A DNA stretch of 64,000 nucleotides from assembly GCA_017610175.1 (NCBI GenBank), contig JAFCCO010000001.1, positions 72,265-136,264 of the forward strand. The letters run 5' to 3'. Each line of letters starts with the position of its first letter. The stretch's first letter is position 1. Both the position numbers and the translations under genes were made by a program. This DNA is from Candidatus Iainarchaeum sp. GTDB taxonomy: Archaea > Iainarchaeota > Iainarchaeia > Iainarchaeales > GCA-2688035. Below the pieces are notes generated by a model. It did not search any database. It saw only the letters and a list, made by a program, of their open reading frames with translations, and was not told the origin of the DNA. Below, in pieces: positions 3,917 through 64,000 of this stretch.

Positions 3917-3928
3917 GTAATATATAAG
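3917..3928 (+). promoter_or_regulatory. Archaeal TATA-box-like element (taatatataag) about 25 nt upstream of a probable leaderless start at 3950
   Basis: AT-rich TATA-like octamer at canonical spacing before the ATG that begins the signal peptide MFKTYSKIVLIAFSLLLAANAFA. Confidence 0.4.
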
Positions 3929-3949
3929 AAGTGCATTATTTTTCATAGC

Positions 3950-41141: not shown

Positions 41142-41210
41142 AGTAATCAGTTAATCATTAACGAGAACTTATTTATATAGGTAATTATTATATAGATAAG
41201 TAAAATATAA

Positions 41211-42714: not shown

Positions 42715-42761
42715 TTTGTTTTCCTCATTAAATTAATGAATCTTATCTAATAAATTCCTTT

Positions 42762-43148: not shown

Positions 43149-43458
43149 GGTCTGCCCCGCTGCTTATTGGGCTCTGCTCTCCACCGCCTGAACCTCCTCC
43201 GACAAAGAAAAAGTCAATAAGGATTCCGGCCGCGCCCATCACAAGCAGCATCATAAGAACGTAAACCGTTTCAAAAAACCACGCATAGGGTGACAAAAGC
43301 ATAAAGTATGCAAACCCGACAATCAACACGATTGAAACAGGCCCCTTTCCCAAATGGTTTACCGCAAAGGAAATTATTGTGAGCAGTATGAATATCTTTA
43401 GGACAAAGGTCATGTCCCGAAAAAACTCCATTATGAACAGCATGGCTAAGTCTATCAT
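43084..43458 (-). CDS. Small membrane protein with Gly-rich C-terminal tail
   Basis: 124 aa; three TM helices; tail VGGGSGGGEQSPISSGADLAKR...RGRR; first gene after the giant ORF. Confidence 0.45.
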   Translation of the reverse strand: MIDLAMLFIMEFFRDMTFVLKIFILLTIISFAVNHLGKGPVSIVLIVGFAYFMLLSPYAWFFETVYVLMMLLVMGAAGILIDFFFVGGGSGGGEQSPISSGADLAKRVASGQGARARAPARGRR

Positions 43459-43498: not shown

Positions 43499-46400
43499 CT
43501 AGCTGCCGTAGCCAATGCAGGTCTGGTCTGCTGCAAGGCCTTCCTCTATTTCACTAAGGCTGCTGTAGCTTCCCACCATTTCGTAAAGTGTTTTTGGGTT
43601 CCACCAGAAAGACGTCTCGGAACCGGTGTCTGTCACGCAAACGTCTCCGGCCTCAACAAGCTCAAAGAGGTCCTGGAGTTCTGCAACACTGTCCCTTGCT
43701 GATTTGCTGTTGTTGTTCATTGTGGAAATTCCCTTCAATTCGACCGATGATGCCAGTGCGCTGTCAGGCGTTAGGAATGCAAGCCCTTCCGGAGCAATTC
43801 CCTTAAGTGCAAAAGAGCCGTTGGTTGGAGTGTAAATATATGTTTTGAGGTAGACGTCTCCCGAGCGCTCTGCGTCCTTCCAGTCAAGTGCGTAAGCATA
43901 CTGCCACACTGCAAGCGGGTCCCCTGAAACTCCTTCCCTGTCAGGGGTATTTGAGAACTTTTCAAACACAGGGATTCCTGTAAAGTCAAGGCACTGCCCT
44001 GCTCCCGTCCAAAAGCTAAGGCTGCTTCCAACCTCCTGCGGCTGGTCAACATCAAGCAGTTCAAAGAATGCCGAGAACGGTTCGTCCGTTGAGCCCTTGT
44101 TTATTACCATCATAACAGGTGTTGCGTAGTGGGGGTAGAAAAGCAGGTCGTTTTCGTTGTAGCTTGAACCCCTCTTAATTTTAAGCAGCATTCCCCTGTT
44201 TGAGGCAAGTGAATTAATGTTCTTAAAGCCAAAGACAGTGTCAGTATTTAGCGTGCTGACCGTTGTGGAGCCGGAAATCTCCTCTGTATTGACAAGTATT
44301 CCGTCATCGCTGTTGACTGTGAAAGCGTCTCCTGCGTTTATGTAGTCCAATCCGTATCCTACACGCCCGTTAGAGGTTGTTTTTCCAAGCTCTCCGTTGA
44401 ATGGCAGGTAGTAGAAGATGCTGTTCGGGAACGGTTCCTCTGCAATGTACATGCTTATCTCAATTTCGGCTGTTGGGTCTCCGCTCGTGTCAAACAGTGT
44501 AAAGTCCTTGTTCTCAAAGTCAATCTTTAGCAAAATATCGTACTTTCCGGCGTTTGAGAGCTTTGTTGAATTAACATATCTTCTAACGAAGTGCATTCTG
44601 CTTGTGTCGCCAAAGTAATCTATGAATGCACCGTCTCCTCTGCTCACAAACCACTCAGGTGCGTCCATGAAAGCAATCTCATCATAGTAATCCACAAAGT
44701 CGCTCTGGAAATCTGTGCTGTATCCGTCCTCCATAAGGCTTACTTTGAATTGCACGTAGTCCCTGAAGTCGTTCAGGTTCTGTATCTCATCAGTCCACAC
44801 AACCTCTCCGAACTCGTCCATTTCCTCCAAATAATATTCAAGCGCGGGCTTTCCATCAAAGAGCCTTGTTGAGTAGGGCAGCCAGCAGGTGCCCTCTTCC
44901 TGTGTTCCGGGAATAAGGAATGAAACAGTCAGGCTGCTTGTCCTGTCCTGGTATTCGGCATCAAAGTATTCCGGGACCTCTGAGTTAACGTCGTTTCTGT
45001 TTATTGTGTCCTCGCTAATCAGCTTTGCCCTTGCGCTGTAGTAGCCGCTGCTTTCCGGCAGGTCAACAAAGCCGCATGAAACAGTTTCTGTGCTTCCGGC
45101 CGGCACAAACGCTGCCTGTGTGCATGTTTGTTGCCCAGCGCTTAGTGAAATTCCGCCTGGTGCCACAAGGTATATTTCAATATCCCCGCTTTTGTCAAAC
45201 CCTGAGTTGTTTTCAATTTTGACTGCTACTGCGGCGGTTGTTCCCGCAACGCTTTTCTCTATTGCGCTTAGGCCCATTGTTCCGCTTGGAACTTCGTGCG
45301 TTTCCATCGGAGCCTGGATTTGCTCCAGCACAAGCATTGCCGGGTTGTCCGGGCAGGTTATTACAGGGTTTTCTTTGAGGAAGTCCTCAAGTATTTTGAT
45401 TCTCTTGGTTAGCATTATTCCAAACTGTGTTGCGTCACAGTATATTCCGTTTGGGTTTTCCGCAAGGCAGCTTTCGTTTGTTATTCCGCTTACTTCGTTC
45501 CATGCCCATGAGAGCTTTACGCGTGGCAGTGCATCATATCCTGTTGTTCCAAACATTGTGCCCTGCAGGCAGCCTGATTCCGGCCTGTATGGCGGAATCT
45601 TGTCAATAATTGTCTTTGTGTTGAATTTTAGGTGTATTCTTTGTGTGAATGTTTCGGCGCTTATGTCCGGCACATTGAATGGCCCAAAGTCTCCGTCGTC
45701 TCCTGGAATTATTGTTGGGTTTGCGTGGTTGTGCTTTGTTGCGCTAAAAGCGGTTGTTCCGTAAACAGGTTCAGATTCCTCCAGAGCAGTATTTTCAAAC
45801 ACAACAGCCACATCCTGCCGCTCCCATGTCCCAAATACCTTGGCGTCCTCGGTATTCCAGGTTCCAGCAATTCCCTGCCTGTCAATTGTTAGTGGCAGGG
45901 CGTCTTCCTTCAGGTTAATTATGTAATCCACAAGCGGCTGCTGCACGCGCTGGGCGCATGGGTCGTCATCCGCTCCAAACAGGCCTCCGAGCAGCCCTCC
46001 TGCAAGCGCCCCAAGCGCTGCAAATGTTCCTGTAATTGCCCAGAAGTCCCCTTTCTGCATTGAGGACGCCATTGCCATTCCCTCTGCCGCTTTTGAAGCG
46101 GCTTTTGCCGCCTTCAATGCATTCTTCACCGCAGGGACGGCGTCGTCAATTCCTTTTATTGAATTCTTAAGCTGGTCACTTATTGTGTCTTTTATTGTGT
46201 CTTTGGCGCTGCCCATTGCAGTTTTCATGGCTTCGTTTTCGGCTTCCATCTCAGCCAGTTGCTCGGTTTTGAATGCTTGTAATTCTACTATTGCCTCATC
46301 AATTGCTGCCTCGCACGCTGCTCCTGGGCAAGTGGGAACACACTTCGGTGGGCAACAGGTTCCAGGGGCACAGCTTCTGGCAAGGCAGGGTGGGCGTGCT

Positions 46401-49400
46401 GCGTTCATTGCAGTGGTTAGTGCATCAATTTCCGCCTCTGTGCTTGCAATTTCTTCGGGAATCTTTTTTCCAAGGTCGTCAGTAATTATTTCCTGCCCTT
46501 GCTTTGTTGCGTCAGTCATTGTGTCGCTTGCTTGCCCTGCAAGTTTTCCGGAGCCCTTAAAACCGCTTTTTCCGAATCCAAGGAATCCTCCACTTCCGCC
46601 TGAAGTGTCGAAGAAGCTTGCGGCCGCATCAAGGTTTGGTGGTTTCTCTCCGGCCGATTTTGGAGTTGCGTTCTTTTGCCCTTGTGAATAATTGTTTTGT
46701 GCCTCGCCTGCCATATCCTGTGCTTCTGTTGCCTTGTCAAGCCCGTCCTGTGCTGTGTCTGCAAAGTCTTGTGTATTGTCAAGAGCGGCATCGGTTGCTT
46801 GCTGTATGCCCTCGGTTGCTGCCGTTAATGACTGGGCAGCTCCTGTTACTGCGCCTCCGGCTTGGCAAACAGTGTCAACCTGTGCGGCTTTTCCTGTTTC
46901 AAGTGCTTTGCTGGCTTTTTGAGTTGCATCAGCGGTTTCCTTTGCCTTTTCGGCCGCTTCAACTGCTTTGTCCGCGCTGTCAACCGCTGTTTGGGAGGCT
47001 TCCGCTGCTTTTGATGCGGCATCGCCTGCTTTTGTTGCTGCGTCCCCTCCGTCTGTTATTGCCTGGTCGTCAACTGATTCGGCAGCCTTTTGTGCGCCCT
47101 GCCCTGCTTTCAGCGCTTGCTGGGCTCCCATAATTCCTCCGATTGCGGCTCCGACTCCTGCGCCCGCAAGGTTGAAGAGTTCCTCTTCCTGTTCCTCTGC
47201 CATTCCCCAGGCACATGCGCTTGCGTCAACCGTAACCATTTCGGAGAGGCTTTTGTTCTTCAGCTGTGCTGTGTCCTTGTTTCCCTGCCCTTTGATGTTG
47301 AATTCGTATTTGTCAAGTGAGAAAATGTCGTGCTCTGACATGTCCACAAACACGTCAAGCAGCTTCACTTTTTTGAAGCTTCTTCCAGGAGTTCTTGCCG
47401 AAACCCATACTCCGTACAGTCCGGGAATTGTCTGGCGCATTACTGTTATTTCCTGCACCGGGTTGGTTGGGGTTGTTGAAAATTTTTGCGGCATTACATT
47501 TATTCCGCCCTCTGCCCCGCCGCTGCATCCTGTGTCGTTTCTGCAGAGTGAAAAGTCAATTGTTGTGTTTCCGCAGTTGCTTGCGTCAACCACAAATGTT
47601 GTGCTTCCGTTTTCAACGCCTGGAACAAGCACAACCGATTCCGCGCCCTCGTACGTTACACAGCTTTCAAGGTTCATTATTTTGATTGATGAATCTATAT
47701 AGCTTGGGGAGCTTCCGACCTTTTGGTAGCCTGTTCCCTCGCCTGTAAACATTTCCCCGTCAATTGAAACCTGGAATTCGGCGTCCTGCCCAAGGTAGCC
47801 TTGGAGGGGGGTAAATGTAAGCAGGCCGTAGTAAAGCCCTTCTTCGCGAACGTCCTCAAACATTCTTGACCAGACAATTGGCTTGAGTGTTTCAATATTG
47901 CTTTCAGCTGAAAGGGCGTCCTGCAGGCTTAATTCAACGTTTCCCATTATGTCGCTTTGCCAGTCTATTTTTGCAACAAGCCTGTCGAGCGGTAGGAATT
48001 TTCCCTTGCTCATGCAGTTGTTCTGCACCTCAAACTCGAGCACTGCCGCATTTCCTTGTGTTGTTGTTTCCCACTTGCTTTTTGTTATTACAACACAGTC
48101 TTCTGTTTCAGGCAGGCCGCTTATTGTTACGTTTACCTTTAGGGGGATTATAAAGTCGTAGACAGCTCCAGCGTCCTTGTTTTCAAATGTAAGCCAGACG
48201 CTTCCCTCAAGCTTTTCCGCTTTCCTCAGGATTTCCGAAGCGTTCTCGCTGAGCTTTACCTTAACAAGCTCTACTTCCCTTACCTCATTTCCTTCAATTG
48301 TTGTTCCCTGGAACTGCCCAAGGTAGTTGGCCATTGTGGCTTCATCCAAAAGGCCTTTGAACCGCCCGCTTATGTTTGTTCTTGTCAGTTCAAGCTCGCT
48401 TGGGATAATGTTTGTTATTTCAATAAATTTGTTTGCCTCTGGCTCGTCCTTTGTTGAGAGATTTGAGGTTATTTGTTCCGGCGAAAAGAGTAGAACGTTT
48501 GCGTCAACAAACAGTTCAATCGGTTCTGCGGCATAGCCCGGCTTTTCCGCCCTGATTGTTATTTTTGTTCCCGCTGAAGAGGCCGGGATTGTAAAGCTTG
48601 CTTTTCCCAAACTGTTTGTTGTGTCTGTCCAGCTTTGCTCTGTCCTGTTGTAGGCGCTTTTTGTAATGCTTACTATTGCGTTTTGCAACTCAAACTTTTG
48701 CCCTCCATCAACCAATTCGTAGATTGTAACGTCCATTGGTGTTGCGACAAAGGATGGAACCACAAGCGGCTGAACCTCTATTGCCATGTTCTTTTCGGAT
48801 ACAGCGCGAATTGAAACAATTTTTTGGAACACGATTTTTCCGTCTGCAACCACCTTTATTTCAAAGCTGTCCGAGCCAAGCTCTGTTGGCTTGAACTTAA
48901 GTTTTGCGTTAACCGTTTTGCCTTTGGTGAAGTTTCCAAGGCTGATTTCATCAACCGTCCTTACCCTGATGTTTTCGGCGGTAATTGTTCTTGCGTCCGC
49001 GTCCTGTATTTCGTATTCTGTTATCAGGAATGTTTCATCCAACCCTATTATTGACAGTTCACTGTCGCTGTAAACTGTGCTGCTGTTGTTTGAGATAATA
49101 AAGTTGAATACATGTGGGCTGTTGACGCGTGCCTCGTACGGTGCATATATGTAAAGCCCTTCCTCTTCGTCAAGAATCCATTCGCCGCTGTAGCAGAAGT
49201 CTTCGTCGCACTCCGCAAGCTCTCCCTCGTAATATTCCAGGAAATATGATTTTGCGTAGAGGGCCTGCTTTTGTGAGCTGCTTTCCTCAACCCCTAGTGT
49301 GCTGTCGTAGGGGTCCCTTTCAATTGCGTCGTCAACCTCTGTCCACGCCCTGTAGTGCATTGGAAGCATTGTTTGCGGTGTTATCTGGCTTTTTACCCTT

Positions 49401-51574: not shown

Positions 51575-51607
51575 TCAAAAACCATTCCATTTGGATTTTA
51601 AGCCTTT

Positions 51608-54600: not shown

Positions 54601-57600
54601 TTATTTCAACTGCCTTGTCGTAGCAGTTGTTGATTACCTCTGATGTGTCAAACCCATCTGTTGCGTTTGCAGGGTCATCAAACACTTCGAACTCGTATTT
54701 TGTCAAATCAAGGCATTTGCCACTAAAGATTCTTGCCCTCACCGTTTTGACCAGTTTTTTCTGTGTCTGGTCCGAGCCCTTTGCGTAAATGTTTATTGGG
54801 TACTGTCCTGGAATGTTTCTTTCCGCATACACTTCAATCTCTTTTGACTCGTCAGATGTCATTGAAAGGGTCCTTTTTGAAAGGGTCAGTTCTGATTCAA
54901 GTGTTATTTGGGTCTGTGGCCCGCAGTTTCCAAGTGTTTCAATGTTGAATACGTCGCTTTTCCTTGGGGCAATTATCAAAACTTCCTTGTCAACGTATAT
55001 GCAGTCCACAAGGTTTGCGGTGGTCAGCTCTGCCAGAAGCTTGTCTGTTAAAAGCTGCACTTTTGCGTCCGTTGGGTTGCCTGCCTGAAAGATTATTTCC
55101 GCGTTTGCTATTCCGTCTATTGCGGCGTCAGGCATGAATGAGAGTACAACCGAGATTGTTTCCCCTTCGGCAAGCCTTGCCGCAAATTTCCTGAAGTAAC
55201 CGCTTCTAAGTTCTATTGCCGCCTGCTCGGTTCTTAGTTCAAATTGCCCCACACTATTGCCCTGCCATGCGACCTTTACCTCAATGTCCTTTAATTCAAC
55301 AGGGTTGCCTTCTTTTGCGCAGTTGTTTTGCACTTCAAACTCAACTTCAATGGGGTTTCCTTCTGTAAAGCCCTTCCATTCCTTCTTTGTTATGCTAAAG
55401 CACGTGGGGTCTGTTACCTCGCCTCCCAATCCAATGCTTACAGTTGTTGGAACGTTAAATTCCCACAGTGAACCGTATGCGCTAAGCCCTACCTGGAGCT
55501 CTCCCTGCAGTGTTTTTGCTTCTGAAACCTGTTTTCCGGCATCGCTTAGGAATGCTTTCAGGCTGTATTCCCTTTCTGCCCCTGCCTTGATTGTTTCGCC
55601 TTCAAATGTGAAGAGCCAGTTTCTGATGCGTTCCTCGTCAAGCAAATTGCGGAACCGCCCGTCCAGTTCAAGGCTTGATATTTTAACGTCAAAGCTTGAC
55701 AGGTTTTCAATTGTGAATTTCTTTTCGCCCTCTGGGTCTGTTGCAACGTTTAGCGAGATTCCGAGCCTTGACGGCTTTATTGAGACAATTTCCTCGTTTA
55801 CCCCAAGTTCCCTTTCGTAGAGTTCAAAGTCAAGCTTTTCAATCTGAAGCTTTAGTTTTTCTCCGGGGGAAAGTGCTGGCAGTGTAAGTATTGCGATTCC
55901 CTTGCTGTTGGATGTCTTTTCCGCCAGAACGTCTCCAAACTTGTCCCTTACTTTTACTGTTGCGTCTGCAACTTCAAGGCCTGCCTGGTTTTTCACGGTA
56001 ACTGTTATCTTGTTTTCAATTCCGCTTGGAAGAAGTTCCGGCACAACAACTGTTTCAAACCTGTTTGCGGCAGTTACCCCTATTGTGATTGTTTTTGAGA
56101 ATACAATTCTTTGCCCTGACCTAATTTCTATCAGAAGCGGGGCTGTTCCAGACTGGTTTGGTGTGAAGTTAACGCGCCCGGTTGCGCTTCTGTTGGGCAG
56201 CAAATCCCCGATTGGAATCCAACCTGTTTCGTTGTCGTTTGCCTCTCCGGGGATTGTTGTTCCCTGTGCGCCGGTAATTTCGTAATCGTTTATCAAAAGC
56301 GAGTCGTTTTCGTTAACAAGCCTGATTTCTGCCCCAAGGTATGAGTCTGTTTCAAACTCCGAGTTGTTGAGAATGCTGAAGTTGAGCTTGTATTCCCTGA
56401 ATATTTTTCCCGTAAAAGACTCTGAAACGCTTTGTGCAAGCCCTTCTGAGAGGTCAAGAATGTTTGCCGAGAAGCAGAACTGCTCGTCACAAACGGTTTC
56501 TGTCCCAACCTGGAAAACTTCCCTGTGGGTGTTTGCGTAAAGTGATTCTGAAACCCCGTCCACGCTTCCAAGCACTTCATCAATCGGGTTTCTTACAAAT
56601 TCGCTGTCCTGTTCAGCCCACGCCCTGTAGTGGATTGACAGTTCGTCCTCGACTTCTGCGGTTTCCTTTACTTCAATCTCCACTTCCACGTCGGTTAGGC
56701 CTGTTGCAAAGTTTCTGATAATAATGTTTGCCCACTTGGCTTTGTCACTGCTTATGTGTTCGGAGTCAACGTCGTATCCGTTTTCGGGGCTGTAGGATGT
56801 TGCCTTGATTATTCCGGCTTCCCCCGGGACGTTCAATTCTTTTATCACAAGCTTGTCAAGTTCCATTATTTTCTTGTCGCCTGTTCTTACATGCATTCCG
56901 ATTGATTCATAATTTGTGTTTGCAGGAACCCTTAGCTGGAACATTGCCTTATATCTTCGCCCTGGCGCAAGCACTGAAACGATTTTTCCCTGCTTGTTGA
57001 AAATGCCCTTGAATTCAACCTTTATGTCCCCTGAAATTATCTCTTTTTCAAGAACCGCTGTGATTTCCTGCACTCCGTTTGGTGGAACTGAGTAAATCAG
57101 GGATGTGTAGTTTGTGTACCCCTTTTTGCTTGCGATTATGTAAATTTTCTTGTCCGCGCGGGTGGTAAGGTCAAGCGTGCCGTTTATGTCTTCCACCGGC
57201 TTGCTTCCCCCTCCAACAATTTTGTCTCCCACAACTTCGATGAATGCAACTGTTGCAAACTGAAGCGGGTTTCCGTCCTCATCTAGCACGCGTGCCCTAA
57301 TTGTTCCGTCCGGAACCGTTAAGACAACGGTTACAATTGTTTTGTCCGCAGCCCTTTCAATAAAGTGCTCCACTTCGCTCCATCCTGAGCTTGATGCCTT
57401 GAATGCAAATGCCTTGTAGTCCCCTGACTTCACGCCCTTAAAGCTTGCGATTCCGTTTATGTCCGTTGTCTGGTTTTGGAACCCAAGGGAGAAGCCGTCC
57501 GGGCTGTGCAGTGAAACTGTTGTGTTTTTCACAAGCCTTCCTGTCTGGTCAATTACCTTTACCTTCATTGTTCCGCCGCATGCAGGGGTGTATGGCTCAA

Positions 57601-58819
57601 GTTCTATTGTTTGCACAGAGTCACTTATGCTTACCTTAACCGTTCCAAGGCAGTAGTCTTCGTGGTCGATTAGTGCGGTGTATTCAACATCTTCGGTTAC
57701 TGTAAATGTCACTTTGCCGTCTGAGTTTGTGTTGCGTGCAGGGGCTGCGTCCTCCACACCTTTTTTCAGGCTAACCAGCGCATCTGTTATTTCATCATTG
57801 TTTCTTTCGTTTACAATCTTAAGCTTTATTTCCCCAACAATGTTTTGTTCAAGTTCAAGTATAACCGTTTCAGAGGAGTCAACAACAATTGAGAAGACCG
57901 CGCTTTGGGTGCTTCCAAAGCCGCCTGTTCCCGCTGTTTTAACATAGTAGTCCCCTGCAGGCTTTGAGAATATTGCAATCCCGTTTGCGGTTGTCTGGGA
58001 GTCAATTGGCCCTGAACCTGATAATTCCCCTGTGTCCTTGTAGAGGTAAACTGTTTCTGTTTCGGATATTATTTGCCCGTCCGCTTTCAGTTCAACCCTA
58101 ACGCTTCCTGTTGCCTCGGCAGGGGCTGAAAGGTAAATTGTTTGTGTTCCGCTTGTAATTTCAATGCTGCTTTTTGGGTCAAAGCTGTCCGATTCCACGC
58201 TTGCAATTAATCCGTTGCATCCTGCGGGTTCAATAACTGTTACCTGCCCGTTGGAAACTTCTATGCTGCTTGGTGCCTGCACATCTGAGTTTTTGCATGC
58301 AAAATGCAGTGTAACAGGCTCCCTTATTGGCTGGCTGTATTCGTCCTTTAGCAGGATATTAAGCTCTCTTGTCAGGATTTCGTTTAAGTAGAATTTTTTT
58401 GTAAGGCTTGCGCTCTCAAGGGTCACATAATCGGTTGTTTTTTCATAGCCCTCTTTTGAAATCTCCACGTCCAAACTGGCTCCGAGCGCCAATAAAATCG
58501 GGTCTGTTTCCCCGAGTTCGTTTGTTGTGCCTGTAAATACCACTTCATCATTGAAGATTACTTTGACTGCAGCATTGGGCAAAGGGTTGTCGTCTTGGTC
58601 AAGAACCTGTACTGCAAAAGAGCTTTGGCCTGTTCCCGCAAAGAATCCAATAACTGCCCCGAGGGCAACAATTGCAACAAGGGCAAGCAATAGTGCAAAG
58701 CTTGGGGCGATTTTGTCAATCGGCTCTATTACCTTGTAGACCGGGACTTTCTCGTCAATTTTGTCAAGGAGTCCGTACCACTTGTCTTCCCAGGAATAAT
58801 ATAGGTCGTTTAAGTTCAT
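51608..58819 (-). CDS. Giant surface protein (2403 aa), paralogue of 43499..51574
   Basis: N-terminus DLYYSWEDKWYGLLDKIDEKVPVYKVIEPIDKIAPSFALLLALVAIVALGAVIGFF; C-terminus ...FFWNPKVILEELAGERSKAEADCIGAS; central glycine-zipper segments flank a Pro-rich PVEQP repeat. Confidence 0.7.
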   Translation of the reverse strand: MNLNDLYYSWEDKWYGLLDKIDEKVPVYKVIEPIDKIAPSFALLLALVAIVALGAVIGFFAGTGQSSFAVQVLDQDDNPLPNAAVKVIFNDEVVFTGTTNELGETDPILLALGASLDVEISKEGYEKTTDYVTLESASLTKKFYLNEILTRELNILLKDEYSQPIREPVTLHFACKNSDVQAPSSIEVSNGQVTVIEPAGCNGLIASVESDSFDPKSSIEITSGTQTIYLSAPAEATGSVRVELKADGQIISETETVYLYKDTGELSGSGPIDSQTTANGIAIFSKPAGDYYVKTAGTGGFGSTQSAVFSIVVDSSETVILELEQNIVGEIKLKIVNERNNDEITDALVSLKKGVEDAAPARNTNSDGKVTFTVTEDVEYTALIDHEDYCLGTVKVSISDSVQTIELEPYTPACGGTMKVKVIDQTGRLVKNTTVSLHSPDGFSLGFQNQTTDINGIASFKGVKSGDYKAFAFKASSSGWSEVEHFIERAADKTIVTVVLTVPDGTIRARVLDEDGNPLQFATVAFIEVVGDKIVGGGSKPVEDINGTLDLTTRADKKIYIIASKKGYTNYTSLIYSVPPNGVQEITAVLEKEIISGDIKVEFKGIFNKQGKIVSVLAPGRRYKAMFQLRVPANTNYESIGMHVRTGDKKIMELDKLVIKELNVPGEAGIIKATSYSPENGYDVDSEHISSDKAKWANIIIRNFATGLTDVEVEIEVKETAEVEDELSIHYRAWAEQDSEFVRNPIDEVLGSVDGVSESLYANTHREVFQVGTETVCDEQFCFSANILDLSEGLAQSVSESFTGKIFREYKLNFSILNNSEFETDSYLGAEIRLVNENDSLLINDYEITGAQGTTIPGEANDNETGWIPIGDLLPNRSATGRVNFTPNQSGTAPLLIEIRSGQRIVFSKTITIGVTAANRFETVVVPELLPSGIENKITVTVKNQAGLEVADATVKVRDKFGDVLAEKTSNSKGIAILTLPALSPGEKLKLQIEKLDFELYERELGVNEEIVSIKPSRLGISLNVATDPEGEKKFTIENLSSFDVKISSLELDGRFRNLLDEERIRNWLFTFEGETIKAGAEREYSLKAFLSDAGKQVSEAKTLQGELQVGLSAYGSLWEFNVPTTVSIGLGGEVTDPTCFSITKKEWKGFTEGNPIEVEFEVQNNCAKEGNPVELKDIEVKVAWQGNSVGQFELRTEQAAIELRSGYFRKFAARLAEGETISVVLSFMPDAAIDGIANAEIIFQAGNPTDAKVQLLTDKLLAELTTANLVDCIYVDKEVLIIAPRKSDVFNIETLGNCGPQTQITLESELTLSKRTLSMTSDESKEIEVYAERNIPGQYPINIYAKGSDQTQKKLVKTVRARIFSGKCLDLTKYEFEVFDDPANATDGFDTSEVINNCYDKAVEITVEWDEHSWMDAMKTGAIVGLAMGLAGGFSAMGEGSSFFTGAAKDAAKGGGKEIKRTFGGREYIYDGEDWRDKKGVRITDKGILGGLEAGGDKPAAPAVVPKPVSPPVQQPAAPVEQPKPPVEQPQLPRTDYAAPSDEPILGPTGLATGAAQSIGSGIGQGMMGGMVGGIAKGIMGPPSFASWGIQGFLMGTLWAYSQQEDGTFTFTEILRDIEVHTAELFLPGALLTIEGEGEETETTIEEVPSEDIIVQLRDESYTEPNRENERLNVEYTRLDVINTTGVVQPDPATPIYRTLKVSGERINYVTEYEFDEETRPEEIEEESRDAYSQRFKIQLNAFNPLEAQKEPGPIPNCKLGTKVGVTGKAAVPKVLFKWDWDSINIDTCDEGNDDYIYCDATQFSIELLRKVKKLQEFIQENKPFDCPSPGSASSVKERPIISTVADVALTKIQARKVNNDANIFATVESNNNKAMAVEVTINIKNAETDALVKSCTKEIELISREIVDCLFTGVPAGSYKTEAIIVPTLCPDCENNDEDSDSISTTLIMGELGIEECEPYTTLRFKQFLEATEVAGNNAWSSADKEEMLKLLKFNAFLIRDAYTNDFRADFHEFCVHQSFFDCPAWYYEGDDSFGKYFSSGDNFIFDYAQAPHSPLQAGKYEITLDVEFNNDNWEFFSNGQPDAVVKVRMSQLSMPEPDSPFYYLPFDGRIGADSLNGRQGYGVNFRQTSEETISINSESDHLVVSTNLAASTPVFGGWVNAGFNDDFRRLNIDRRGILLDVQAGADETNIVLSPSYATPIMMKVGYGEGEDAYGFYSIEVGGSPETAFSKMIPWDGVGTNCRDFEDSPMLDAWQNTWDVHGGVTANISCARGTDIQDYGIEWCNPIRKGNTYLQSVVFTPQNTSSLMQRRSYSDEMALIAVDNIGTQIALNGVPGMQFNSYGSSSIDSVEDVFDLVSEGKVCLIGSDNRISNQFFWNPKVILEELAGERSKAEADCIGAS
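54226..54300 (-). repeat. About 21-bp imperfect tandem repeats (tggttgttcaac...) encoding a (PVEQP)-type proline-rich segment inside the 2403-aa gene
   Basis: tggttgttcaacagggggttt / tggttgttcaactggggctgc / tggttgttgtactggcggact read from the plus strand; minus-strand translation PAAPAVVPKPVSPPVQQPAAPVEQPKPPVEQPQLP. Confidence 0.5.
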
Positions 58820-58887
58820 GCAATTCCCTTTTGTTTTTTCTTTTTTCGCCTAATTAATTATTTCTTTTTAATATTAATACCTTTGCT

Positions 58888-61800
58888 TTACTTTAGCAGC
58901 TGGGTTTTGTTCCACTGCAGGCCAAGTTTGTTGCTTTCGATTTCTGTAATGCAGATATTTCCTGTCTTGATTTCTTTTAGCAATGAATCCAGTGAGTACT
59001 GCTCTTCTTTGTTGCCTGTTGGGGTAATTCCAACTGCCGCTGTTTTAAGTTCCTGTGTGCCTGCGACTGTGACACTTCCGGTGGGCTGCCCGCGGACGCT
59101 TGCACTGACTTTTGCCCCGCCCTGCGCGCACTTTATTTCCAGGTTGGTTTTCATTTCGTATGGTATGAACATTATTCCCTTTACACTTGTAGCTGTTGCA
59201 AGATCCTTCTTGAATCCAAAGTAGTCCTGCCCAACGCCGTTGCAGAGTTCTCTTTGTGCAACAATGTGCTGTATGCGGCTGTCCTTTCCGATTCCGCTCC
59301 ATTCTATAAGTGAAGCCATTTTTTCTGTCCGGCTTGTTGAGAGAAGGCCGCCCGGCACCGGCAGGTCGTAGAGCAATCCTTCTTGCCCGTCCCTGGATAC
59401 CATTTCGGCAGCAACAACCACCGGGTATGATGGCCTGAATTCAAATGTGTTCCCTGATATTGCAAGGACCTTTCCGTCTGCACTGCCTGTAACTGTGGTG
59501 TTTGTTGTAAATGTAAATTCTTTCATGGCTTCTGTTGCCGCAAGGGCTTTAACTTCAACCCTGTTTGGATCCTGTGCATCTATTCCTGTTTTGATGAACA
59601 GGGTTCTGTCTGCGTTTTTCAGGGCTGTTCCGTAGCCGACTCTTTTCTTTGCTGCATCCGCAACTTTTCCGTCGATTGGAATTTCGAACAACGGGTTCTT
59701 TGCGTAATCTGCGCTTATTTTTGCAAGCCTTTGTTCTTCCTCGAATTTGAGTTCAAATTCATCGTTTGCCCAGTTGTAGTTGATGAAAACATTGAACAGG
59801 CCAGCTTTAATGTCTCCGCTAATTTTCCATTTGGCGTATTCAACATTGTCGTATTTTGCTGCAAAGTCTGTTCTAAGTGCTGATGTGTATCCGTCCTTGA
59901 TTAGGTATGCGAAGAAGTTTACGTCTTTGTCAAAGAGTTCCTTTACTTTCCAGTCACTTTTGATGTTTGCCGCTTTTTCAAACGCATTCGTTACGCTTTC
60001 CTCGTCCATCTTGTCCTTGTGCTGTTCTGCGACTGTGAACCCGTCCATCTTTGTTAAAAGTTCCTTTAGGAAGTCCACGCTTATCGGGACATCTTTTGCA
60101 GTGGTGCTAAGGTCAACCTTGCAGCATTTTGCTTTTGTTTTATCTACTTTAGGGGCTGCATCGCTACTAAGGTCAATTGCGGTTCCTGTACAAGCCATTG
60201 CTTCAAAGCACTTGTCTTTGCTGTCTAGTGCTTTCCACATCTTGTCGTGCAGGCGCTCATATTCGTTGAGTGTTATAACATAGTCCGCAAACGGTTCTGT
60301 TGAAGTTTCAACCTTGTCTATTCCGATTGCCTCGCACTGTGCTTTGTATTTGGCTGCGTCTTCACATGCAAGGTCTTTGCTGACTGTGGACAGTATAAGT
60401 CCTGTGTAACTGTCGTTAATCTTTCCGATTGCTTCGTTTGTTTTTGTTAAGTATTCGAACAGCTTGCTTTTGTCGGTTGGAAGTGTTGGAACATTTGCAA
60501 ATGCTGCTTTGACGTTTGCAAGAATCTTTTCGTTGGTTTCACTGAGCGGCTTTCCGTCTGTTCCAAGGAAGAATGCAATTTTCTTGTCCTTTACATCCTC
60601 GTCTACGACAATCTGCTTTTTGGCCCACCTGAACAGGTTTTCGGTGTTCTTGATGTTTGTAAGGTCGTTGCCTGATTTGCCTGTTGCGGCCTTTACAACC
60701 TCTTCGTTGTTGATAAGTTCAGTTTCCCACTTCTCGCTGCCGGTTTTAATCTTGTCCTTAATTTCTTTTGCCTTCTTGTTTACTTCAATGCTGAATTGCA
60801 CTGCATCACAGAAGGTGTTTATTGCTTCCAGTCCGTCTTTTCCTGCAATTCTGTCGCAGATATATTTGTCGTCGTGGAGGTCTTTGCTCCAGTCCCACTT
60901 AATCTTGTCAAAGCCGTATTTGGTGTATATTGCGCTTCCGCTTTGTCCCTGCGGGCAGGCAATTATTTCGCCGTTTGTTGGTGGCTTTGGTCCGACTGTT
61001 CCAATTTGTGCTGTTTCACAGCCTACCACGCTGTCTGATCCAATTTTGAAATCCTTGTGCAAAACATTGAGTTTTAGCGGGATGCTGAATTCTCTGGGTG
61101 CTGGCCAGCAGTCTCTCTTGAGTTTTGCGGTGATTGAGGTGCTTATTTTTGCGCATTTGTAGGGGAGTGCGCTTGCGTCAATCTTGATTGCAATATTGTG
61201 GCCGCTGTCTGTGATTGAGGGGGTAAGTTTAACTCCGCCCGAGTCCGATTGGGCTATTGAAACTTCAATTATCCTGTCGTTGAATCCGCACAGGTTTCTT
61301 GCAAGCTTCATCATCTTGGGTGCGGGCTCCACTGTTCCTCTCCCTCCGGGGATGTTCTTTTGCGGCACAAACCCTGTTGGGGTACTGCCTGCGTAAACTT
61401 TTGTAAAGTCAAGTGCATCTGTGTTTATGCATGCAAGGGGGTCGTTTAGCCAGCAGCTTCCGTCACCAGTCATTCTTTCCGCAAGTTCACCCTGTGGGTT
61501 TTGCTTTGCCGCATTCTTTATGCATGCATCAATTGTTTCGCCAAGGCCCCATGTGTCCTGGAGCATTACTCGGAAGAATGCTGTGTCTGATTGTCCGAAT
61601 GCAGTGCTGTACTTAACTTGAGCGCTTGCCCTTATTGTCGTCCTGTAGTAAGCGCTTGATGCGGTCATTCTCAGCCCAAAGAGGGACTGGAACGGCAATT
61701 CTCCTGAGGTCTGGCAGAGTTGCTGCCTGTACTGTATGTTTGGCTTTACTTCGTATTCAATAATTTGGATTGTTTTTCCGTCCTCGCCTGTTTGCTTGGT

Positions 61801-64000
61801 TTCGTCGTTGATGTAAACTCCGCTTATAACCGGGCATGCCCCTTCCGTGCCTGAGGCTGAGTATCCTGAGCCTGTTCCACCGTATGGGTTGGATGCATCT
61901 GATTGGTAATAGCCCTGGTTTTGGTTTCCATAAGGGCTGTTGTATTGCCCTGAGCCTGCAAACCCTGTTGCATTGTGTGTTTCGTATGGGGAGTATGATT
62001 CAGGCGTTCCTGTTGGTGCTGTGCCGCTTGGTGTGTAACCGCCGCCGTTTGCAAACAGTGCGGTGTTTGTGTTTTGTGCCGCAAAGTTCATTTGGCCTGA
62101 TGGCCTGCCTGGAATCTGGCATTTGAATTCAATTATCCTGTCTGTTTTTTCAAGGAATACTCCGGCATCATAGCAATAGTTGTATATTTTTGCGGGCACT
62201 GGCTTTCCTATAAAGTTGTTCAGGCTTATTTCGGTTGGGGATAGCTTTATGCAGTCCTCGTCTATTTCATCAGGGCGCTTTACTATCACGTTAACGCTTG
62301 CAATCTTTGTGTACTTGTCTTTGCTTCCGCTTGCCCTTGCGTTTACATTGAGTTTGTACTTGCCCATTCTGTAGCCTGATTCAATCTCAACATCTTTTGT
62401 TTCCTGTGGGTCAAGCGAGAATTTGTTTTCTGCCGCTTTAATCATCGCATCCGCTTCAAGGTCAAGTTCTACCGCAATTGTGCAGGTGTTTTCAATCCTG
62501 ATTGAGTTTTCCCCAAGCCCGTATCTCCATGAGTCCTCTTCGCCCCTGTCGTAATAGTTTGTCCTGAACGGGCTGTCAAAGTTACTGTTGGGGTATGTTC
62601 CTGCAAAACCTCCTGAGTAACCTCCGCCGCCGCTGTATCCTCCGAATCCACCTTGGGCGTATCCATTATACCCGAAGTTTGCAAAGTTTCCATAGCCTGT
62701 GTTCCAGGGTGTTGTGCGAATTTCAACCGGGTCAGGTGCAAGGACCTTTAGGCACTTGGATAGGTTGCTTATGAATACATTTGTCTTGATTTTTGTTTCG
62801 ACTTCCTCTTTTCCGTTGAGGGTTTTGTTTTCCGCCTGCAGAACAATTTGGTATTCTGCCTCTTCGCTGTCTATTTCCGGGTTTGGCGTGAATTCAATTT
62901 CAATGTCTCCTTCGAAATCTGCCGGGAGCTGCGGGACAATTACATCAAAGTCATCCCCTATTTCAATCTCTTCCGCGTCCTCTATGTCTTCACTTCTGAG
63001 CTTGAATGTTCCAATAAGGTTTTCCTCTTCGCTTTGGATTTTTGCGGAGAAGTTTCTTAGGGGGATGGCTATTCCTCCAACAGTGCATGTGTTTGTAATT
63101 TTTATTCCTATTTTCTTTGTTTTGCTGCCGTCTGTTATGACTTCCCACACTGCCGGGTCTGCTCGGATGCAGTCTGAGTCATCCACTTCGTCTCCGAAGC
63201 CTACCCTTATTTCAAGCGGTATGTCTGTGACAAACAGGGCGTCAATTCCCTCTGCCTTGGTTTCGAACACAATTGATCCGTTGAGCTTTGTCGGCTCGTC
63301 TATCAAAAAGCCTTCTTCTGTGAGCTTTATTGTAATAAACATGTTTGCGTCTGAGTTGACAGGCAGGTTCTTTTCTGATGGCAGGTCAAGTTTGAATTCA
63401 ACAAGGTCCCGGAAGTCATTTGATACCGTTATGTCTTCAACCGATTGTGCCAGAGCCGTCATGTTGCTTATTAAAATCCCTATCCTGCTTTCAAAGTCTA
63501 TTGGGTTAAGTTTTGCCTTGATTTTGGGTGGAGTTATGAGGAGAATGCTGTCGTCAATTGCAATTTCAACATTTGTTGCAAGGTAGCCGTTCTTTGAGGC
63601 CTTAATCTCAAGGGTTGTGCCAGGGCTTGGTGCCTCTATTTCAAAGCTTGTTTCCCCTAATGCATTTGTCTGCCCGCTGAACAGCACGTCTTCCTCAAAC
63701 TTTGCCGTAACAATTGCATTGCTTATTGCATTTCCGTCGTCGTCGCTGACCTTTACCACAAGCAAATTGTCTATTAAGGGAATTATTTCGCGCGGGAGGA
63801 CATCTATTTGCAGTTGTTCTGCGGCGTCAACGCGAACGTTTATTGCCTCGTCAAAGATTGGCGCCTGCTCGCTCTTTATTATGATTGTGAATTTGTTGCT
63901 TCCCTCTTTTTCGGTTACAAATTCAATCTGACCTGTTATTTCGCTTCCCTTGTTGATTGTTCCAACCGTTTTTGAGAGAGAGTATGCTTCTGCAACCCCC
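58888..64000 (-). CDS. Giant surface protein, third tandem paralogue, 5' end beyond window (at least 1700 aa)
   Basis: The listed ORF start is a TTG; the same frame stays open upstream to position 64000; C-terminus ...ICITEIESNKLGLQWNKTQLLK resembles the other two; Gly/Tyr-rich low-complexity segments mid-protein. Confidence 0.65.
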   Translation of the reverse strand, partial: GVAEAYSLSKTVGTINKGSEITGQIEFVTEKEGSNKFTIIIKSEQAPIFDEAINVRVDAAEQLQIDVLPREIIPLIDNLLVVKVSDDDGNAISNAIVTAKFEEDVLFSGQTNALGETSFEIEAPSPGTTLEIKASKNGYLATNVEIAIDDSILLITPPKIKAKLNPIDFESRIGILISNMTALAQSVEDITVSNDFRDLVEFKLDLPSEKNLPVNSDANMFITIKLTEEGFLIDEPTKLNGSIVFETKAEGIDALFVTDIPLEIRVGFGDEVDDSDCIRADPAVWEVITDGSKTKKIGIKITNTCTVGGIAIPLRNFSAKIQSEEENLIGTFKLRSEDIEDAEEIEIGDDFDVIVPQLPADFEGDIEIEFTPNPEIDSEEAEYQIVLQAENKTLNGKEEVETKIKTNVFISNLSKCLKVLAPDPVEIRTTPWNTGYGNFANFGYNGYAQGGFGGYSGGGGYSGGFAGTYPNSNFDSPFRTNYYDRGEEDSWRYGLGENSIRIENTCTIAVELDLEADAMIKAAENKFSLDPQETKDVEIESGYRMGKYKLNVNARASGSKDKYTKIASVNVIVKRPDEIDEDCIKLSPTEISLNNFIGKPVPAKIYNYCYDAGVFLEKTDRIIEFKCQIPGRPSGQMNFAAQNTNTALFANGGGYTPSGTAPTGTPESYSPYETHNATGFAGSGQYNSPYGNQNQGYYQSDASNPYGGTGSGYSASGTEGACPVISGVYINDETKQTGEDGKTIQIIEYEVKPNIQYRQQLCQTSGELPFQSLFGLRMTASSAYYRTTIRASAQVKYSTAFGQSDTAFFRVMLQDTWGLGETIDACIKNAAKQNPQGELAERMTGDGSCWLNDPLACINTDALDFTKVYAGSTPTGFVPQKNIPGGRGTVEPAPKMMKLARNLCGFNDRIIEVSIAQSDSGGVKLTPSITDSGHNIAIKIDASALPYKCAKISTSITAKLKRDCWPAPREFSIPLKLNVLHKDFKIGSDSVVGCETAQIGTVGPKPPTNGEIIACPQGQSGSAIYTKYGFDKIKWDWSKDLHDDKYICDRIAGKDGLEAINTFCDAVQFSIEVNKKAKEIKDKIKTGSEKWETELINNEEVVKAATGKSGNDLTNIKNTENLFRWAKKQIVVDEDVKDKKIAFFLGTDGKPLSETNEKILANVKAAFANVPTLPTDKSKLFEYLTKTNEAIGKINDSYTGLILSTVSKDLACEDAAKYKAQCEAIGIDKVETSTEPFADYVITLNEYERLHDKMWKALDSKDKCFEAMACTGTAIDLSSDAAPKVDKTKAKCCKVDLSTTAKDVPISVDFLKELLTKMDGFTVAEQHKDKMDEESVTNAFEKAANIKSDWKVKELFDKDVNFFAYLIKDGYTSALRTDFAAKYDNVEYAKWKISGDIKAGLFNVFINYNWANDEFELKFEEEQRLAKISADYAKNPLFEIPIDGKVADAAKKRVGYGTALKNADRTLFIKTGIDAQDPNRVEVKALAATEAMKEFTFTTNTTVTGSADGKVLAISGNTFEFRPSYPVVVAAEMVSRDGQEGLLYDLPVPGGLLSTSRTEKMASLIEWSGIGKDSRIQHIVAQRELCNGVGQDYFGFKKDLATATSVKGIMFIPYEMKTNLEIKCAQGGAKVSASVRGQPTGSVTVAGTQELKTAAVGITPTGNKEEQYSLDSLLKEIKTGNICITEIESNKLGLQWNKTQLLK

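What the first reader, a model, noticed from the sequence alone, without database searches (positions are those of the whole stretch)
43499..64000. Three tandem, co-directional, paralogous giant genes (over 20 kb of coding) with shared N-terminal anchor and C-terminal motif
Three head-to-tail ORFs of 2691 aa, 2403 aa and more than 1700 aa (third runs off the window) are separated by only 33 and 68 nt. The two complete ones begin with clearly homologous segments (DLY[FY]S.EDK.Y..LD......P.YKV..PID...PS....L...V...G) containing one TM helix. All three end with a related block (...F.WNPK....E...............CIG.S for the first two). Between the ends are dozens of Ig-like/carboxypeptidase-regulatory-like beta-sandwich repeats. 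Giant, duplicated surface proteins are a hallmark of host-attached small-genome archaea and bacteria, but this family, with a conserved cap at both ends, is not something I can assign to a described protein family.
Basis: partly seen in the sequence, partly recalled or inferred. Interest (0 to 1): 0.8.

Follow-up and report, generated by a model that had tools for sequence, protein, structure and literature searches.

The report
Conserved giant surface-protein operon, Iainarchaeota
Three adjacent genes of about 2,400-2,700 codons each are real, ancient paralogues found in the same order across one phylum of tiny archaea (Iainarchaeota/Diapherotrites), and most likely build a membrane-anchored cell-surface structure from a protein family nobody has described.

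Summary
On the minus strand lie G3 (58888 to beyond 64000), G2 (51608-58819, 2403 aa) and G1 (43499-51574, 2691 aa), with gaps of 68 and 33 nt. They are collinear paralogues (about 27% identity), not recent duplicates.

The organism is a DPANN archaeon of the phylum Iainarchaeota. The three genes represent three orthologous groups (a, b, c) that sit in the order a-b-c in every related locus I could read, followed by four or five small multi-pass membrane proteins.

Each giant has these parts:
- A conserved 40-residue N-terminal cap plus one transmembrane helix. The cap marks the family: 660 cluster representatives at E<=1e-10, always at the extreme N-terminus.
- A rod of about 14 diverged beta-sandwich domains, with no sequence repeats.
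- In b and c only, a glycine-rich hydrophobic hairpin split by a low-complexity insert.
- A head of about 700 aa with no Pfam, NCBIfam or PDB match apart from one CARDB-like sandwich, carrying an invariant [YF]CDA[TV]QF motif.

Best reading: a heteromeric, membrane-anchored envelope or contact structure specific to the phylum. The function is inferred, not shown. It is a new variant of a known kind (giant archaeal surface proteins).

The parts
58888..64000 (-). G3, the a-type giant gene. This is the 3' 5.1 kb (1703 codons); the 5' roughly 2.6 kb lies beyond the window.
   Evidence: Open frame. It aligns to residues 864-2696 of the full-length orthologue L1a. Orthologues are 2550-2730 aa.
51608..58819 (-). 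G2, the b-type giant gene, 2403 aa.
   Evidence: There is a 100% match to P0001 and orthologues at 44-65% identity.
43499..51574 (-). G1, the c-type giant gene, 2691 aa.
   Evidence: Orthologues L1c and L2c are 42% identical.
58700..58819 (-). G2 N-terminal cap (aa 1-40, ..DLYYSWEDKWYGLLDKIDEKVPVYKVIEPIDKIAPS).
   Evidence: Alignments A3 and A5 have Y7 and E11 invariant and D12, K13, Y15, D19, P39 and S40 at >=90%. The profile finds 660 representatives at E<=1e-10, always at the N-terminus.
58634..58699 (-). G2 N-terminal transmembrane helix (aa 41-62).
   Evidence: Kyte-Doolittle 19-residue mean of 2.86.
51377..51574 (-). G1 N-terminal cap (aa 1-43) plus transmembrane helix (aa 44-66).
54560..58633 (-). 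G2 ectodomain 1 (aa 63-1420): a rod of about 14 beta-sandwich domains.
   Evidence: Pfam CarboxypepD_reg (65.7 bits against a cut-off of 32.3) and Big_1 (50.6 against 34.9). The AlphaFold model of aa 540-1420 is all-beta with pLDDT 84.8. Foldseek matches only chains of Ig/MG/ASH domains. Conserved Cys pairs are at 175/201, 777/782, 1140/1167 and 1273/1299.
54011..54559 (-). G2 central region. It holds a glycine-zipper segment (aa 1421-1439), a Gly/Pro-rich insert with a 21-nt tandem repeat, and a second Gly-rich hydrophobic stretch (aa 1555-1603).
   Evidence: Family conservation falls to 0.19-0.27 here.
51611..53839 (-). G2 C-terminal head (aa 1661-2403), including the YCDATQF motif at 53405-53425 and the terminal FFWNPK...CIGAS block at 51611-51691.
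   Evidence: No Pfam, NCBIfam or PDB sequence match. The AlphaFold model has pLDDT 63.5 and is confident only for head residues 90-410. Only the CARDB-like sandwich finds structural matches. There are 46 invariant columns in A2.
47210..51376 (-). G1 ectodomain 1 (aa 67-1455): the beta-sandwich rod.
   Evidence: Collinear with G2. Pfam CarboxypepD_reg and SpaA.
45971..47179 (-). G1 central region. It holds a glycine-zipper segment (aa 1466-1484), a 359-aa Ala/Thr/Lys/Glu/Asp-rich insert with a 7-Cys cluster (46313-46393), and a second glycine-zipper segment (aa 1844-1868).
   Evidence: In short-linker c-type orthologues the two segments are contiguous, forming a hydrophobic hairpin of 50-70 aa.
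43502..45970 (-). G1 C-terminal head (aa 1869-2691), including YCDATQF at 45422-45442 and the terminal FWWNPK...CIGYGS block at 43502-43609.
   Evidence: 26% identity to the G2 head. Also.
61837..62697 (-). G3 Gly/Tyr/Asn-rich low-complexity segments (62578-62697 and 61837-62049), at the position of the b and c hairpin. No hydrophobic hairpin is present.
60793..60813 (-). G3 copy of the invariant head motif (FCDAVQF).
41747..43458 (-). Five small membrane proteins immediately downstream. s1 is 43084-43458, s2 42762-43148, s3 42442-42714 and s4 42115-42441, each with 3-4 hydrophobic helices. s5 is 41747-42118, with 2.
   Evidence: In L001 the same five follow the third giant. tblastn finds s1-s4 in 29-35 of 72 related loci, always after the c-type gene in the loci inspected.

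Best explanation
G3, G2 and G1 are the a, b and c subunits of an Iainarchaeota-specific, membrane-anchored cell-surface assembly. They are expressed from one conserved gene cluster together with four or five small polytopic membrane proteins.

Proposed working, with each step marked as shown or inferred:
1. Each giant is inserted by an uncleaved N-terminal signal-anchor. The conserved, acidic 40-residue cap stays in the cytoplasm. The sequence features are shown; the topology is inferred. The cap would act as a family-specific handle for targeting, slow export or docking to a cytoplasmic or membrane partner. This is the same logic as the extended signal-peptide region of very large bacterial autotransporters, and it is inferred.
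2. About 1,350 residues form a rod of roughly 14 disulfide-stabilised beta-sandwich domains projecting from the membrane. The fold is shown by Pfam and a confident model; extracellular location is inferred from the domain types, the conserved Cys pairs and the acidic pI.
3. In b and c the chain then returns to a membrane through a glycine-zipper hydrophobic hairpin, so the rod would be an arch pinned at both ends. The tip of the hairpin carries a lineage-variable low-complexity insert. This step is inferred.
4. Each chain ends in a conserved head of about 700 aa with a new sequence family.
5. The three ancient paralogues, always adjacent in the same order, co-assemble. The b and c heads form the conserved core and the faster-evolving a head is the exposed part. 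This is inferred.

I think the product is a constitutive envelope scaffold, doing the job of an S-layer or stalk canopy, which may also mediate contact with surfaces or other cells.
For: - Real, intact, conserved genes. Orthologues of 2,200-3,250 aa occur in many independent assemblies. The order a-b-c holds in every readable locus: adjacency counts are ab 35 and bc 47, with no other order or strand. This includes two complete genomes (CP010424 AR10 and CP064981) and the Ca. Iainarchaeum andersonii single-cell genome.
- Restricted to one phylum. 192 relatives were found in one-genome-per-species contigs, and nearly all are labelled Iainarchaeum, Diapherotrites or 'archaeon'.
- Heavy investment. 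About 22 kb in genomes of 1.05-1.24 Mb.
- Surface features. There is an N-terminal TM. CarboxypepD_reg, Big_1 and SpaA domains score above their cut-offs. The all-beta model has pLDDT 84.8. Invariant Cys pairs are present. The pI is 4.2-4.9.
- Co-located small membrane proteins in conserved synteny.
- Structural rather than arms-race behaviour. There are no sequence repeats, lengths are stable, and the b and c heads are as conserved as their rods (0.35-0.45 mean pairwise identity). Only the a head is clearly faster (0.22-0.34 against 0.40-0.55 for its rod).
- Hairpin. Two positionally conserved Gly/Ala-rich hydrophobic segments occur in the b and c types. They are contiguous and strongly hydrophobic (Kyte-Doolittle 2.6-2.75) in short-linker orthologues and are bracketed by conserved Cys in the c-type.
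Against: - No expression, abundance, localisation or imaging data exist for any member. The function is entirely inferred.
- Topology is not settled. The cap is net acidic, which goes against the positive-inside rule, and charge flanks around the central segments are not informative.
- In G2 and many orthologues the central segments are only marginally hydrophobic (Kyte-Doolittle 0.7-1.6). They may not span a membrane.
- N-glycosylation sequons are not enriched, unlike typical archaeal S-layer glycoproteins.
- No S-layer HMM matches.
- Another ORF in the window (32671-36171, 1166 aa, signal-like N-terminus, 26 sequons) looks more like a conventional surface glycoprotein.
- The head model is poor (pLDDT 63.5), so an enzymatic or binding function cannot be judged.
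- Co-transcription is unproven. The 68-nt G3-G2 spacer is AT-rich and could hold its own promoter.
Confidence: 0.45

Rival explanations
1. This is a host- or partner-cell contact apparatus. The rods reach another cell, the variable a-type head recognises it, and the glycine-zipper hairpins of b and c insert into the target membrane to form a pore or bridge. That would be the DPANN episymbiont way of life.
For: - The organism belongs to DPANN, where giant surface proteins are linked to attachment (SPEARE, PMC6642349). DPANN lineage-specific unknown families are often membrane-bound or extracellular (PMC8204110).
- Marginally hydrophobic Gly-rich GxxxG segments flanked by acidic residues resemble latent membrane-inserting elements more than ordinary TM helices (the comparison rests on my own knowledge).
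- The a-type head evolves faster than the rest.
- Related loci have a fourth giant and a 575-aa protein with a prepilin-like N-terminus just upstream.
Against: - Iainarchaeota have been argued to be capable of free-living growth (PMC10936187, PMC6642349), and no host is known.
- The b and c heads and all lengths are conserved across the phylum, with no repeat expansion or hypervariable cassettes.
- No toxin, protease, lectin or nuclease domains were found.
- In several orthologues the hairpin is an ordinary strongly hydrophobic segment, which is likely to sit in the cell's own membrane.
Confidence: 0.27
2. These are surface-displayed enzymes or binding proteins. The rod is only a spacer, and the roughly 700-aa head is a new hydrolase, lectin or covalent-attachment domain, with the invariant Cys-x3-Gln of YCDATQF forming a reactive thioester.
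For: - The head has 46 invariant columns, including several Asp, Arg and Tyr residues and the [YF]CDA[TV]QF motif at the start of a long helix.
- Cys and Gln four residues apart recalls the CGEQ motif of complement/alpha-2-macroglobulin and the TQXA motif of Gram-positive thioester adhesins (from my own knowledge).
- Most a-type proteins have an odd number (3) of conserved Cys in this subdomain.
Against: - No Pfam, NCBIfam or PDB hit to any catalytic or thioester family, even at E<=1 across 14 members.
- Structure searches return only a CARDB-like sandwich.
- The b and c types have four conserved Cys here, which is compatible with two disulfides.
- Three paralogous heads always kept together argue for assembly rather than three enzymes.
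Confidence: 0.12
3. These are alpha-2-macroglobulin-like protease traps anchored to the membrane, with the low-complexity middle acting as a bait region.
For: - Weak Pfam hits to bMG3 and MG4.
- Foldseek matches to complement C3/C5, A2M, CD109 and ECAM chains.
- A variable region follows the MG-like rod.
Against: - The MG hits are below their cut-offs (20-26 bits against 24.7-34.9).
- Foldseek TM-scores of 0.1-0.18 reflect only generic strings of sandwiches.
- No thioester (TED), A2M or receptor-binding domain was found.
- The only CxEQ (CDEQ at G2 777-780) lies in a sandwich, its Gln is not conserved (consensus CDExFC; G1 has CDED), and both Cys are invariant, as for a disulfide.
Confidence: 0.03

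Closest known systems
SPEARE proteins of Nanohaloarchaeota (PMC6642349)
   Same: Both are giant (3,300-8,500 aa), mostly extracytoplasmic, single-anchor proteins of a DPANN lineage. Both occur as several paralogues per genome, take up a few percent of a roughly 1 Mb genome, and contain adhesion-type beta domains.
   Different: SPEARE carries serine-protease, laminin-G, BC-toxin-like and restriction-endonuclease domains and is usually anchored near the C-terminus. None of those domains is present here. Here the anchor is N-terminal with a conserved cap, and the three paralogues have a fixed order and length.
Giant bacterial repeat adhesins exported by type 1 secretion (LapA, SiiE, MpIBP; RTX/Bap type)
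   Same: The layout is the same: an N-terminal retention element, a long rod of Ig-like sandwiches, then a distal non-repeat region.
   Different: Those rods are near-identical tandem repeats that expand and contract, and they end in RTX repeats and a T1SS signal. Here the sandwiches have no detectable mutual similarity, no RTX or secretion signal is present, and the anchor is a TM helix.
Archaeal S-layer systems (SlaA/SlaB of Sulfolobales; the 101-kDa TIGR01564-type protein of Micrarchaeota, 10.1101/2021.04.28.441871)
   Same: Both are acidic, beta-rich, membrane-anchored envelope proteins conserved across a lineage, built as a multi-subunit stalk plus canopy.
   Different: There is no S-layer HMM match and no sequon enrichment. 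These proteins are 2-3 times larger, come as three paralogues, have an N-terminal rather than C-terminal or lipid anchor, and have a central hydrophobic hairpin.
MG-domain chains of alpha-2-macroglobulin and complement, and the prealbumin-like chain of NOMO
   Same: The fold of the rod units is the same.
   Different: There is no thioester domain, no bait-and-trap architecture and no significant sequence relationship.
Extended signal-peptide region (ESPR) of very large autotransporters and two-partner-secretion proteins (from my own knowledge)
   Same: Both are conserved N-terminal extensions ahead of the hydrophobic core, found specifically on very large exported proteins.
   Different: The sequences are unrelated. 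ESPR belongs to a cleaved bacterial signal peptide. Here the hydrophobic stretch is about 22 residues long and looks like an uncleaved anchor, and cleavage was not tested.

Membership tests
Pfam CarboxypepD_reg (PF13620) / Big_1 (PF02369) beta-sandwich domains | HMM score above the curated gathering cut-off. | tested here: met
   G1 scores 49.2 bits and G2 65.7 bits against a cut-off of 32.3. Big_1 in G2 scores 50.6 against 34.9. This covers only a few of the roughly 14 sandwiches. The G3 fragment has only a sub-threshold MG4 hit.
Archaeal S-layer glycoproteins (TIGR01564/TIGR01567 type) | Match to the S-layer domain models. | tested here: not met
   NCBIfam scan of G1, G2 and G3 returned no family at E<=0.01. 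Pfam returned none.
Archaeal S-layer glycoproteins (TIGR01564/TIGR01567 type) | One of the most abundant cell proteins, forming a 2-D lattice. | not testable with these tools
   Needs proteomics and electron microscopy.
Archaeosortase / PGF-CTERM (and related) sorted proteins | C-terminal tripartite signal: a short motif, a hydrophobic helix and a basic tail. | tested here: not met
   No hydrophobic segment near any of the three C-termini. The ends are ...CIGAS...CIGYGS and ...WNKTQLLK. No NCBIfam CTERM model hit.
RTX/Bap-type giant repeat adhesins | Tandem, mutually similar repeat units. | tested here: not met
   Self-BLASTP gave 0 internal hits at E<=0.01 for all three. TRF found only 12-nt and 21-nt microrepeats.
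RTX/Bap-type giant repeat adhesins | RTX nonapeptide repeats and a C-terminal T1SS signal. | tested here: not met
   No HemolysinCabind or other RTX Pfam hit.
Alpha-2-macroglobulin / thioester-containing proteins | Thioester domain with a conserved CxEQ, plus A2M and receptor-binding domains. | tested here: not met
   No TED or A2M Pfam hits. The CDEQ at G2 777-780 is in a sandwich and its Gln is not conserved. MG hits are below cut-off.
SPEARE proteins | Serine protease, laminin-G adhesion and type III restriction-endonuclease domains. | tested here: not met
   None was detected by Pfam in G1-G3 or in 14 head sequences.
Fusexin / HAP2 class II fusogens | Three-domain all-beta ectodomain with fusion loops in domain II, forming a trimer. 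| tested here: not met
CARDB-like domain (inside the b and c heads) | Beta-sandwich superposable on the PF1109 CARDB domain. | tested here: met
The new cap-bearing family itself (a, b, c giants of Iainarchaeota) | N-terminal cap Y-x3-EDK[WY]Y...D...PS + TM, about 14 sandwiches, and a head with [YF]CDA[TV]QF and a terminal [VI]C...W-N. | tested here: met
   G1 and G2 have all the features. The G3 fragment has the head motifs, and its full-length orthologues have the cap.

The most novel reading that the evidence does not exclude
The cluster may encode a new kind of archaeal cell-cell contact machine. Three paralogous rods would be anchored in the cell's own membrane by the capped N-terminal helix. 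The latent glycine-zipper hairpins of b and c would insert into a partner's membrane. The heads would carry a reactive Cys-Gln pair (the invariant YCDATQF) that attaches covalently to the target. This would be a molecular basis for DPANN attachment or cytoplasmic bridging, unrelated to any known adhesin, fusogen or secretion system.
Probability: 0.1. Interest if true: 0.85.

Novelty: new variant of a known kind. Interest (0 to 1): 0.55.

Why it matters
Iainarchaeota have no cultured member, and nothing is known about their envelope or about whether they attach to hosts. This cluster is about 2% of a roughly 1 Mb genome. It is conserved in order and length across the phylum and is built from sequence families without any annotation.

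That makes it the obvious candidate for the structure that defines the cell surface of this lineage. It also gives concrete handles for work on environmental samples:
- The 40-residue cap profile is a clean family and phylum marker.
- The conserved heads are targets for antibodies or for identification by cryo-tomography.

It would also add a third, independent architecture to the short list of giant DPANN surface proteins. In addition, it is a natural example of very large exported proteins carrying a conserved cytoplasmic N-terminal extension.

Tried and rejected
- Looking up the exact G2 product to extend the window failed. An exact 70-mer from the window end found nothing in metagenome contigs. 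The 5' end of G3 and its upstream genes in this genome therefore could not be read. Context came from orthologous loci.
- The word-indexed search with the cap profile returned only short fragments from short contigs. The full HMM scan was needed.
- The afdb50 fold library was unavailable.
- The positive-inside analysis of the central segments and the cap was inconclusive. Sequon counting was uninformative.
- Weak similarity among the small membrane proteins s1-s4 (E 1e-4 to 1e-7 without composition correction) was not accepted as homology.
- The downstream 508-aa protein looked to me like a degenerate HerA-type ATPase, but it has no Pfam or PDB support, so I dropped the idea.
- The alpha-2-macroglobulin idea was rejected (see rivals).
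- A foreign or mobile origin was rejected. GC is uniform at 0.45-0.51 across the window, and the cluster is syntenic across the phylum.
Full report
**Observation**

The window carries three long open frames on the minus strand. G1 is 43499-51574 (2691 aa). G2 is 51608-58819 (2403 aa). G3 starts at 58888 and stays open for 1703 codons to the window edge. The spacers are 33 and 68 nt.

BLASTP shows G1 and G2 are collinear at 27% identity over the first roughly 1,500 and the last roughly 790 residues, with an unalignable middle. G3 is more distant but collinear. G3 aligns to residues 864-2696 of a full-length orthologue, so about 2.6 kb of it lies outside the window.

**Organism and family**

An intron-containing tRNA, a family B DNA polymerase and the names attached to homologues place the window in a DPANN archaeon of the Diapherotrites, now called Iainarchaeota.

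Searches with G2 and G3 returned full-length relatives of 2,300-2,800 aa, all 'hypothetical' or 'carboxypeptidase regulatory-like domain-containing'. A scan of one genome per species found 192 relatives of the C-terminal module. Nearly all are in Iainarchaeum or Diapherotrites MAGs. They include the Ca. Iainarchaeum andersonii single-cell genome and two complete chromosomes of 1.24 and 1.05 Mb.

The proteins fall into three orthologous groups: a (G3-type), b (G2-type) and c (G1-type). Orthologues between genomes are 33-52% identical and paralogues within a genome are 27-30% identical. The triplication therefore predates the sampled diversity of the phylum.

**Synteny**

I classified every long ORF in 73 related loci. 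The only adjacencies seen were a-b (35), b-c (47) and split or extra copies of the same type. No other order or strand occurred. Some genomes, including I. andersonii, add a fourth c-like copy downstream.

The third giant is followed by five small proteins with two to four hydrophobic helices each. In the window these lie at 41747-43458, and the same five follow in L001. tblastn finds s1-s4 in 29-35 of 72 loci.

In two other genomes the trio is preceded by a 564-575-aa Cys-rich protein with a prepilin-like N-terminus. Before that lies a fourth giant of about 2,800-2,900 aa, a distant paralogue only in its beta-sandwich part. In this genome that region would lie beyond the window.

**Anatomy**

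1. Cap. The first roughly 40 residues (M..LKD.Y...EDK[WY]Y..LD.[IL]D.K.P.Y.V.D.ID...PS) precede one strongly hydrophobic helix. They are shared by all three groups. A profile of the cap, scored against 1.84 billion representatives, finds 1,066 proteins at E<=1e-3 and 660 at E<=1e-10, always at the extreme N-terminus. All 49 hits of at least 2,100 aa among the best 150 classify as a, b or c. Shorter hits appear to be fragments. Named members are all Diapherotrites or 'archaeon'. The cap occurs nowhere else in the window. It is the best-conserved stretch of the b family.

2. Rod. Residues about 65-1400 give a few Pfam hits above threshold (CarboxypepD_reg, Big_1, SpaA). A confident AlphaFold model of G2 540-1420 (pLDDT 84.8) is all-beta and resolves into about eight sandwiches. 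Foldseek matches only generic chains of Ig/MG/ASH domains at TM 0.1-0.2. Extrapolating gives about 14 sandwiches per protein. They show no mutual sequence similarity, so they are not repeats in the usual sense. Invariant cysteine pairs (for example 175/201, 1140/1167 and 1273/1299 in G2) and a pI of 4.2-4.9 fit an extracellular location.

3. Centre. In b and c the rod is followed by two positionally conserved Gly/Ala-rich GxxxG segments of marginal hydrophobicity. They are separated by a lineage-variable low-complexity insert: 359 aa, Ala/Thr/Lys/Glu/Asp-rich with a seven-Cys cluster in G1, and about 115 aa, Gly/Pro-rich in G2. In c-type orthologues with short linkers, including those of both complete genomes, the two segments are contiguous. 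There they form a 50-70-residue hydrophobic hairpin with a CPPC/CLPC-like turn, bracketed by conserved cysteines. The a-type has no such hairpin but has Gly/Tyr/Asn-rich segments at that position.

**Interpretation**

Shown:
- The family is real, ancient, phylum-restricted and undescribed.
- It belongs to a larger conserved cluster with small membrane proteins.
- Its bulk is a beta-sandwich rod with an N-terminal anchor.

Inferred: it forms a heteromeric cell-surface assembly. I favour a constitutive envelope scaffold for three reasons. Gene order and lengths are fixed across the phylum. There is no repeat turnover. The b and c heads are as conserved as their rods.

The main rival is a host- or partner-contact apparatus. 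It draws support from three points:
- The DPANN context (PMC6642349, PMC8204110).
- The faster-evolving a head.
- The resemblance of the marginal glycine-zipper segments to latent membrane-inserting elements.

Against it, Iainarchaeota have been argued to be potentially free-living (PMC10936187, PMC6642349), and no toxin, lectin or protease domain is present. An enzymatic or covalent-attachment head cannot be excluded because the head model is poor. The alpha-2-macroglobulin reading fails its defining tests.

Weak points of my reading:
- There are no expression or localisation data.
- The cap is net acidic, which goes against the positive-inside rule.
- Sequons are not enriched.
- Another ORF in the window looks more like a classical surface glycoprotein.

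**Comparison and novelty**

In layout the proteins work like N-terminally retained giant adhesins or S-layer stalk-and-canopy systems. Within DPANN they parallel the SPEARE proteins. They fail the defining tests of each of these families (no S-layer HMM, no C-terminal sorting signal, no tandem repeats or RTX, no SPEARE domains).

The literature searches and the papers read turned up no description of this family. The Micrarchaeota S-layer protein is a conventional 101-kDa TIGR01564-type protein (10.1101/2021.04.28.441871).

I rate it a new variant of a known kind: giant archaeal surface proteins with a new cap, hairpin and head in a conserved three-paralogue operon.

Noticed in passing
window 32671-36171 (-): A 1166-aa ORF with a hydrophobic N-terminus, rich in Asn/Thr/Ser, with 26 N-x-S/T sequons (2.2 per 100 aa), pI 5.0 and no Pfam or NCBIfam hit. 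It looks like a conventional secreted or S-layer-type glycoprotein and is a competitor for the envelope role.
   Followed up: partly
window 10152-10280 (-): Rfam finds a tRNA spanning 129 nt that ARAGORN did not report. It is presumably an intron-containing archaeal tRNA.
   Followed up: no
window 39160-41750 (cc152 39160-39618 +, p508 39615-41141 -, cc179 41211-41750 +): Two coiled-coil-like proteins and a 508-aa protein without any family match are syntenic with the giant cluster in other Iainarchaeota (found in 7, 14 and 21 of 72 loci). The N-terminal part of p508 is 60% identical in the AR10 genome. They may belong to the same system, for example as partners of the cytoplasmic cap, or may just be conserved neighbours.
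   Followed up: partly
L073 1-9760 and L002 1-1830 (orthologous loci, upstream of the a-type gene): There is a fourth giant (2876 or 2796 aa) with a related beta-sandwich part but a different, multi-hydrophobic C-terminal region. It has no detected cap relatives among the long cap hits. It is followed by a 564-575-aa Cys-rich protein whose N-terminus (..SSRGFNLFTALVSFLLIMLAVLL..) resembles a class III/prepilin signal. The cluster may therefore be larger than the window shows.
   Followed up: partly
window 46313-46393 (-), G1 aa 1728-1754: A seven-cysteine cluster (PPCLARSCAPGTCCPPKCVPTCPGAAC) sits in the middle of the low-complexity insert. It is at the position of the CPPC/CLPC turn of the compact hairpin in short-linker orthologues. 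It could be a metal site or a disulfide knot.
   Followed up: no
window 53405-53425, 45422-45442, 60793-60813 (-): The invariant head motif [YF]CDA[TV]QF places a Cys and a Gln four residues apart at a helix start. Most a-type proteins have an odd number of conserved Cys in this subdomain. A Cys-Gln thioester is conceivable but untested.
   Followed up: partly
window 54219-54283 (-): A 21-nt tandem repeat (2.7-2.8 copies) encodes the PVEQPKP-type proline-rich stretch of the G2 central insert. It is the only repeat in the three genes apart from a 12-nt, two-copy microrepeat at 46180-46204 in G1.
   Followed up: no
L048 19402-22119 and L045 19388-22279: Ca. Iainarchaeum andersonii and another genome carry an additional c-like giant directly after the c-type gene, so the family has expanded to four tandem members in some lineages.
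   Followed up: partly
window 3902-8217 (+): Two adjacent acidic, Cys-rich ORFs (592 and 846 aa; 15 Cys each). The second has a weak PKD-domain hit. They are probably further secreted or surface proteins.
   Followed up: no
window 58820-58887 (-): The G3-G2 spacer is very AT-rich (..GGTATTAATATTAAAAAG..) and could hold an internal archaeal promoter. The three genes may not be strictly one transcript.
   Followed up: no
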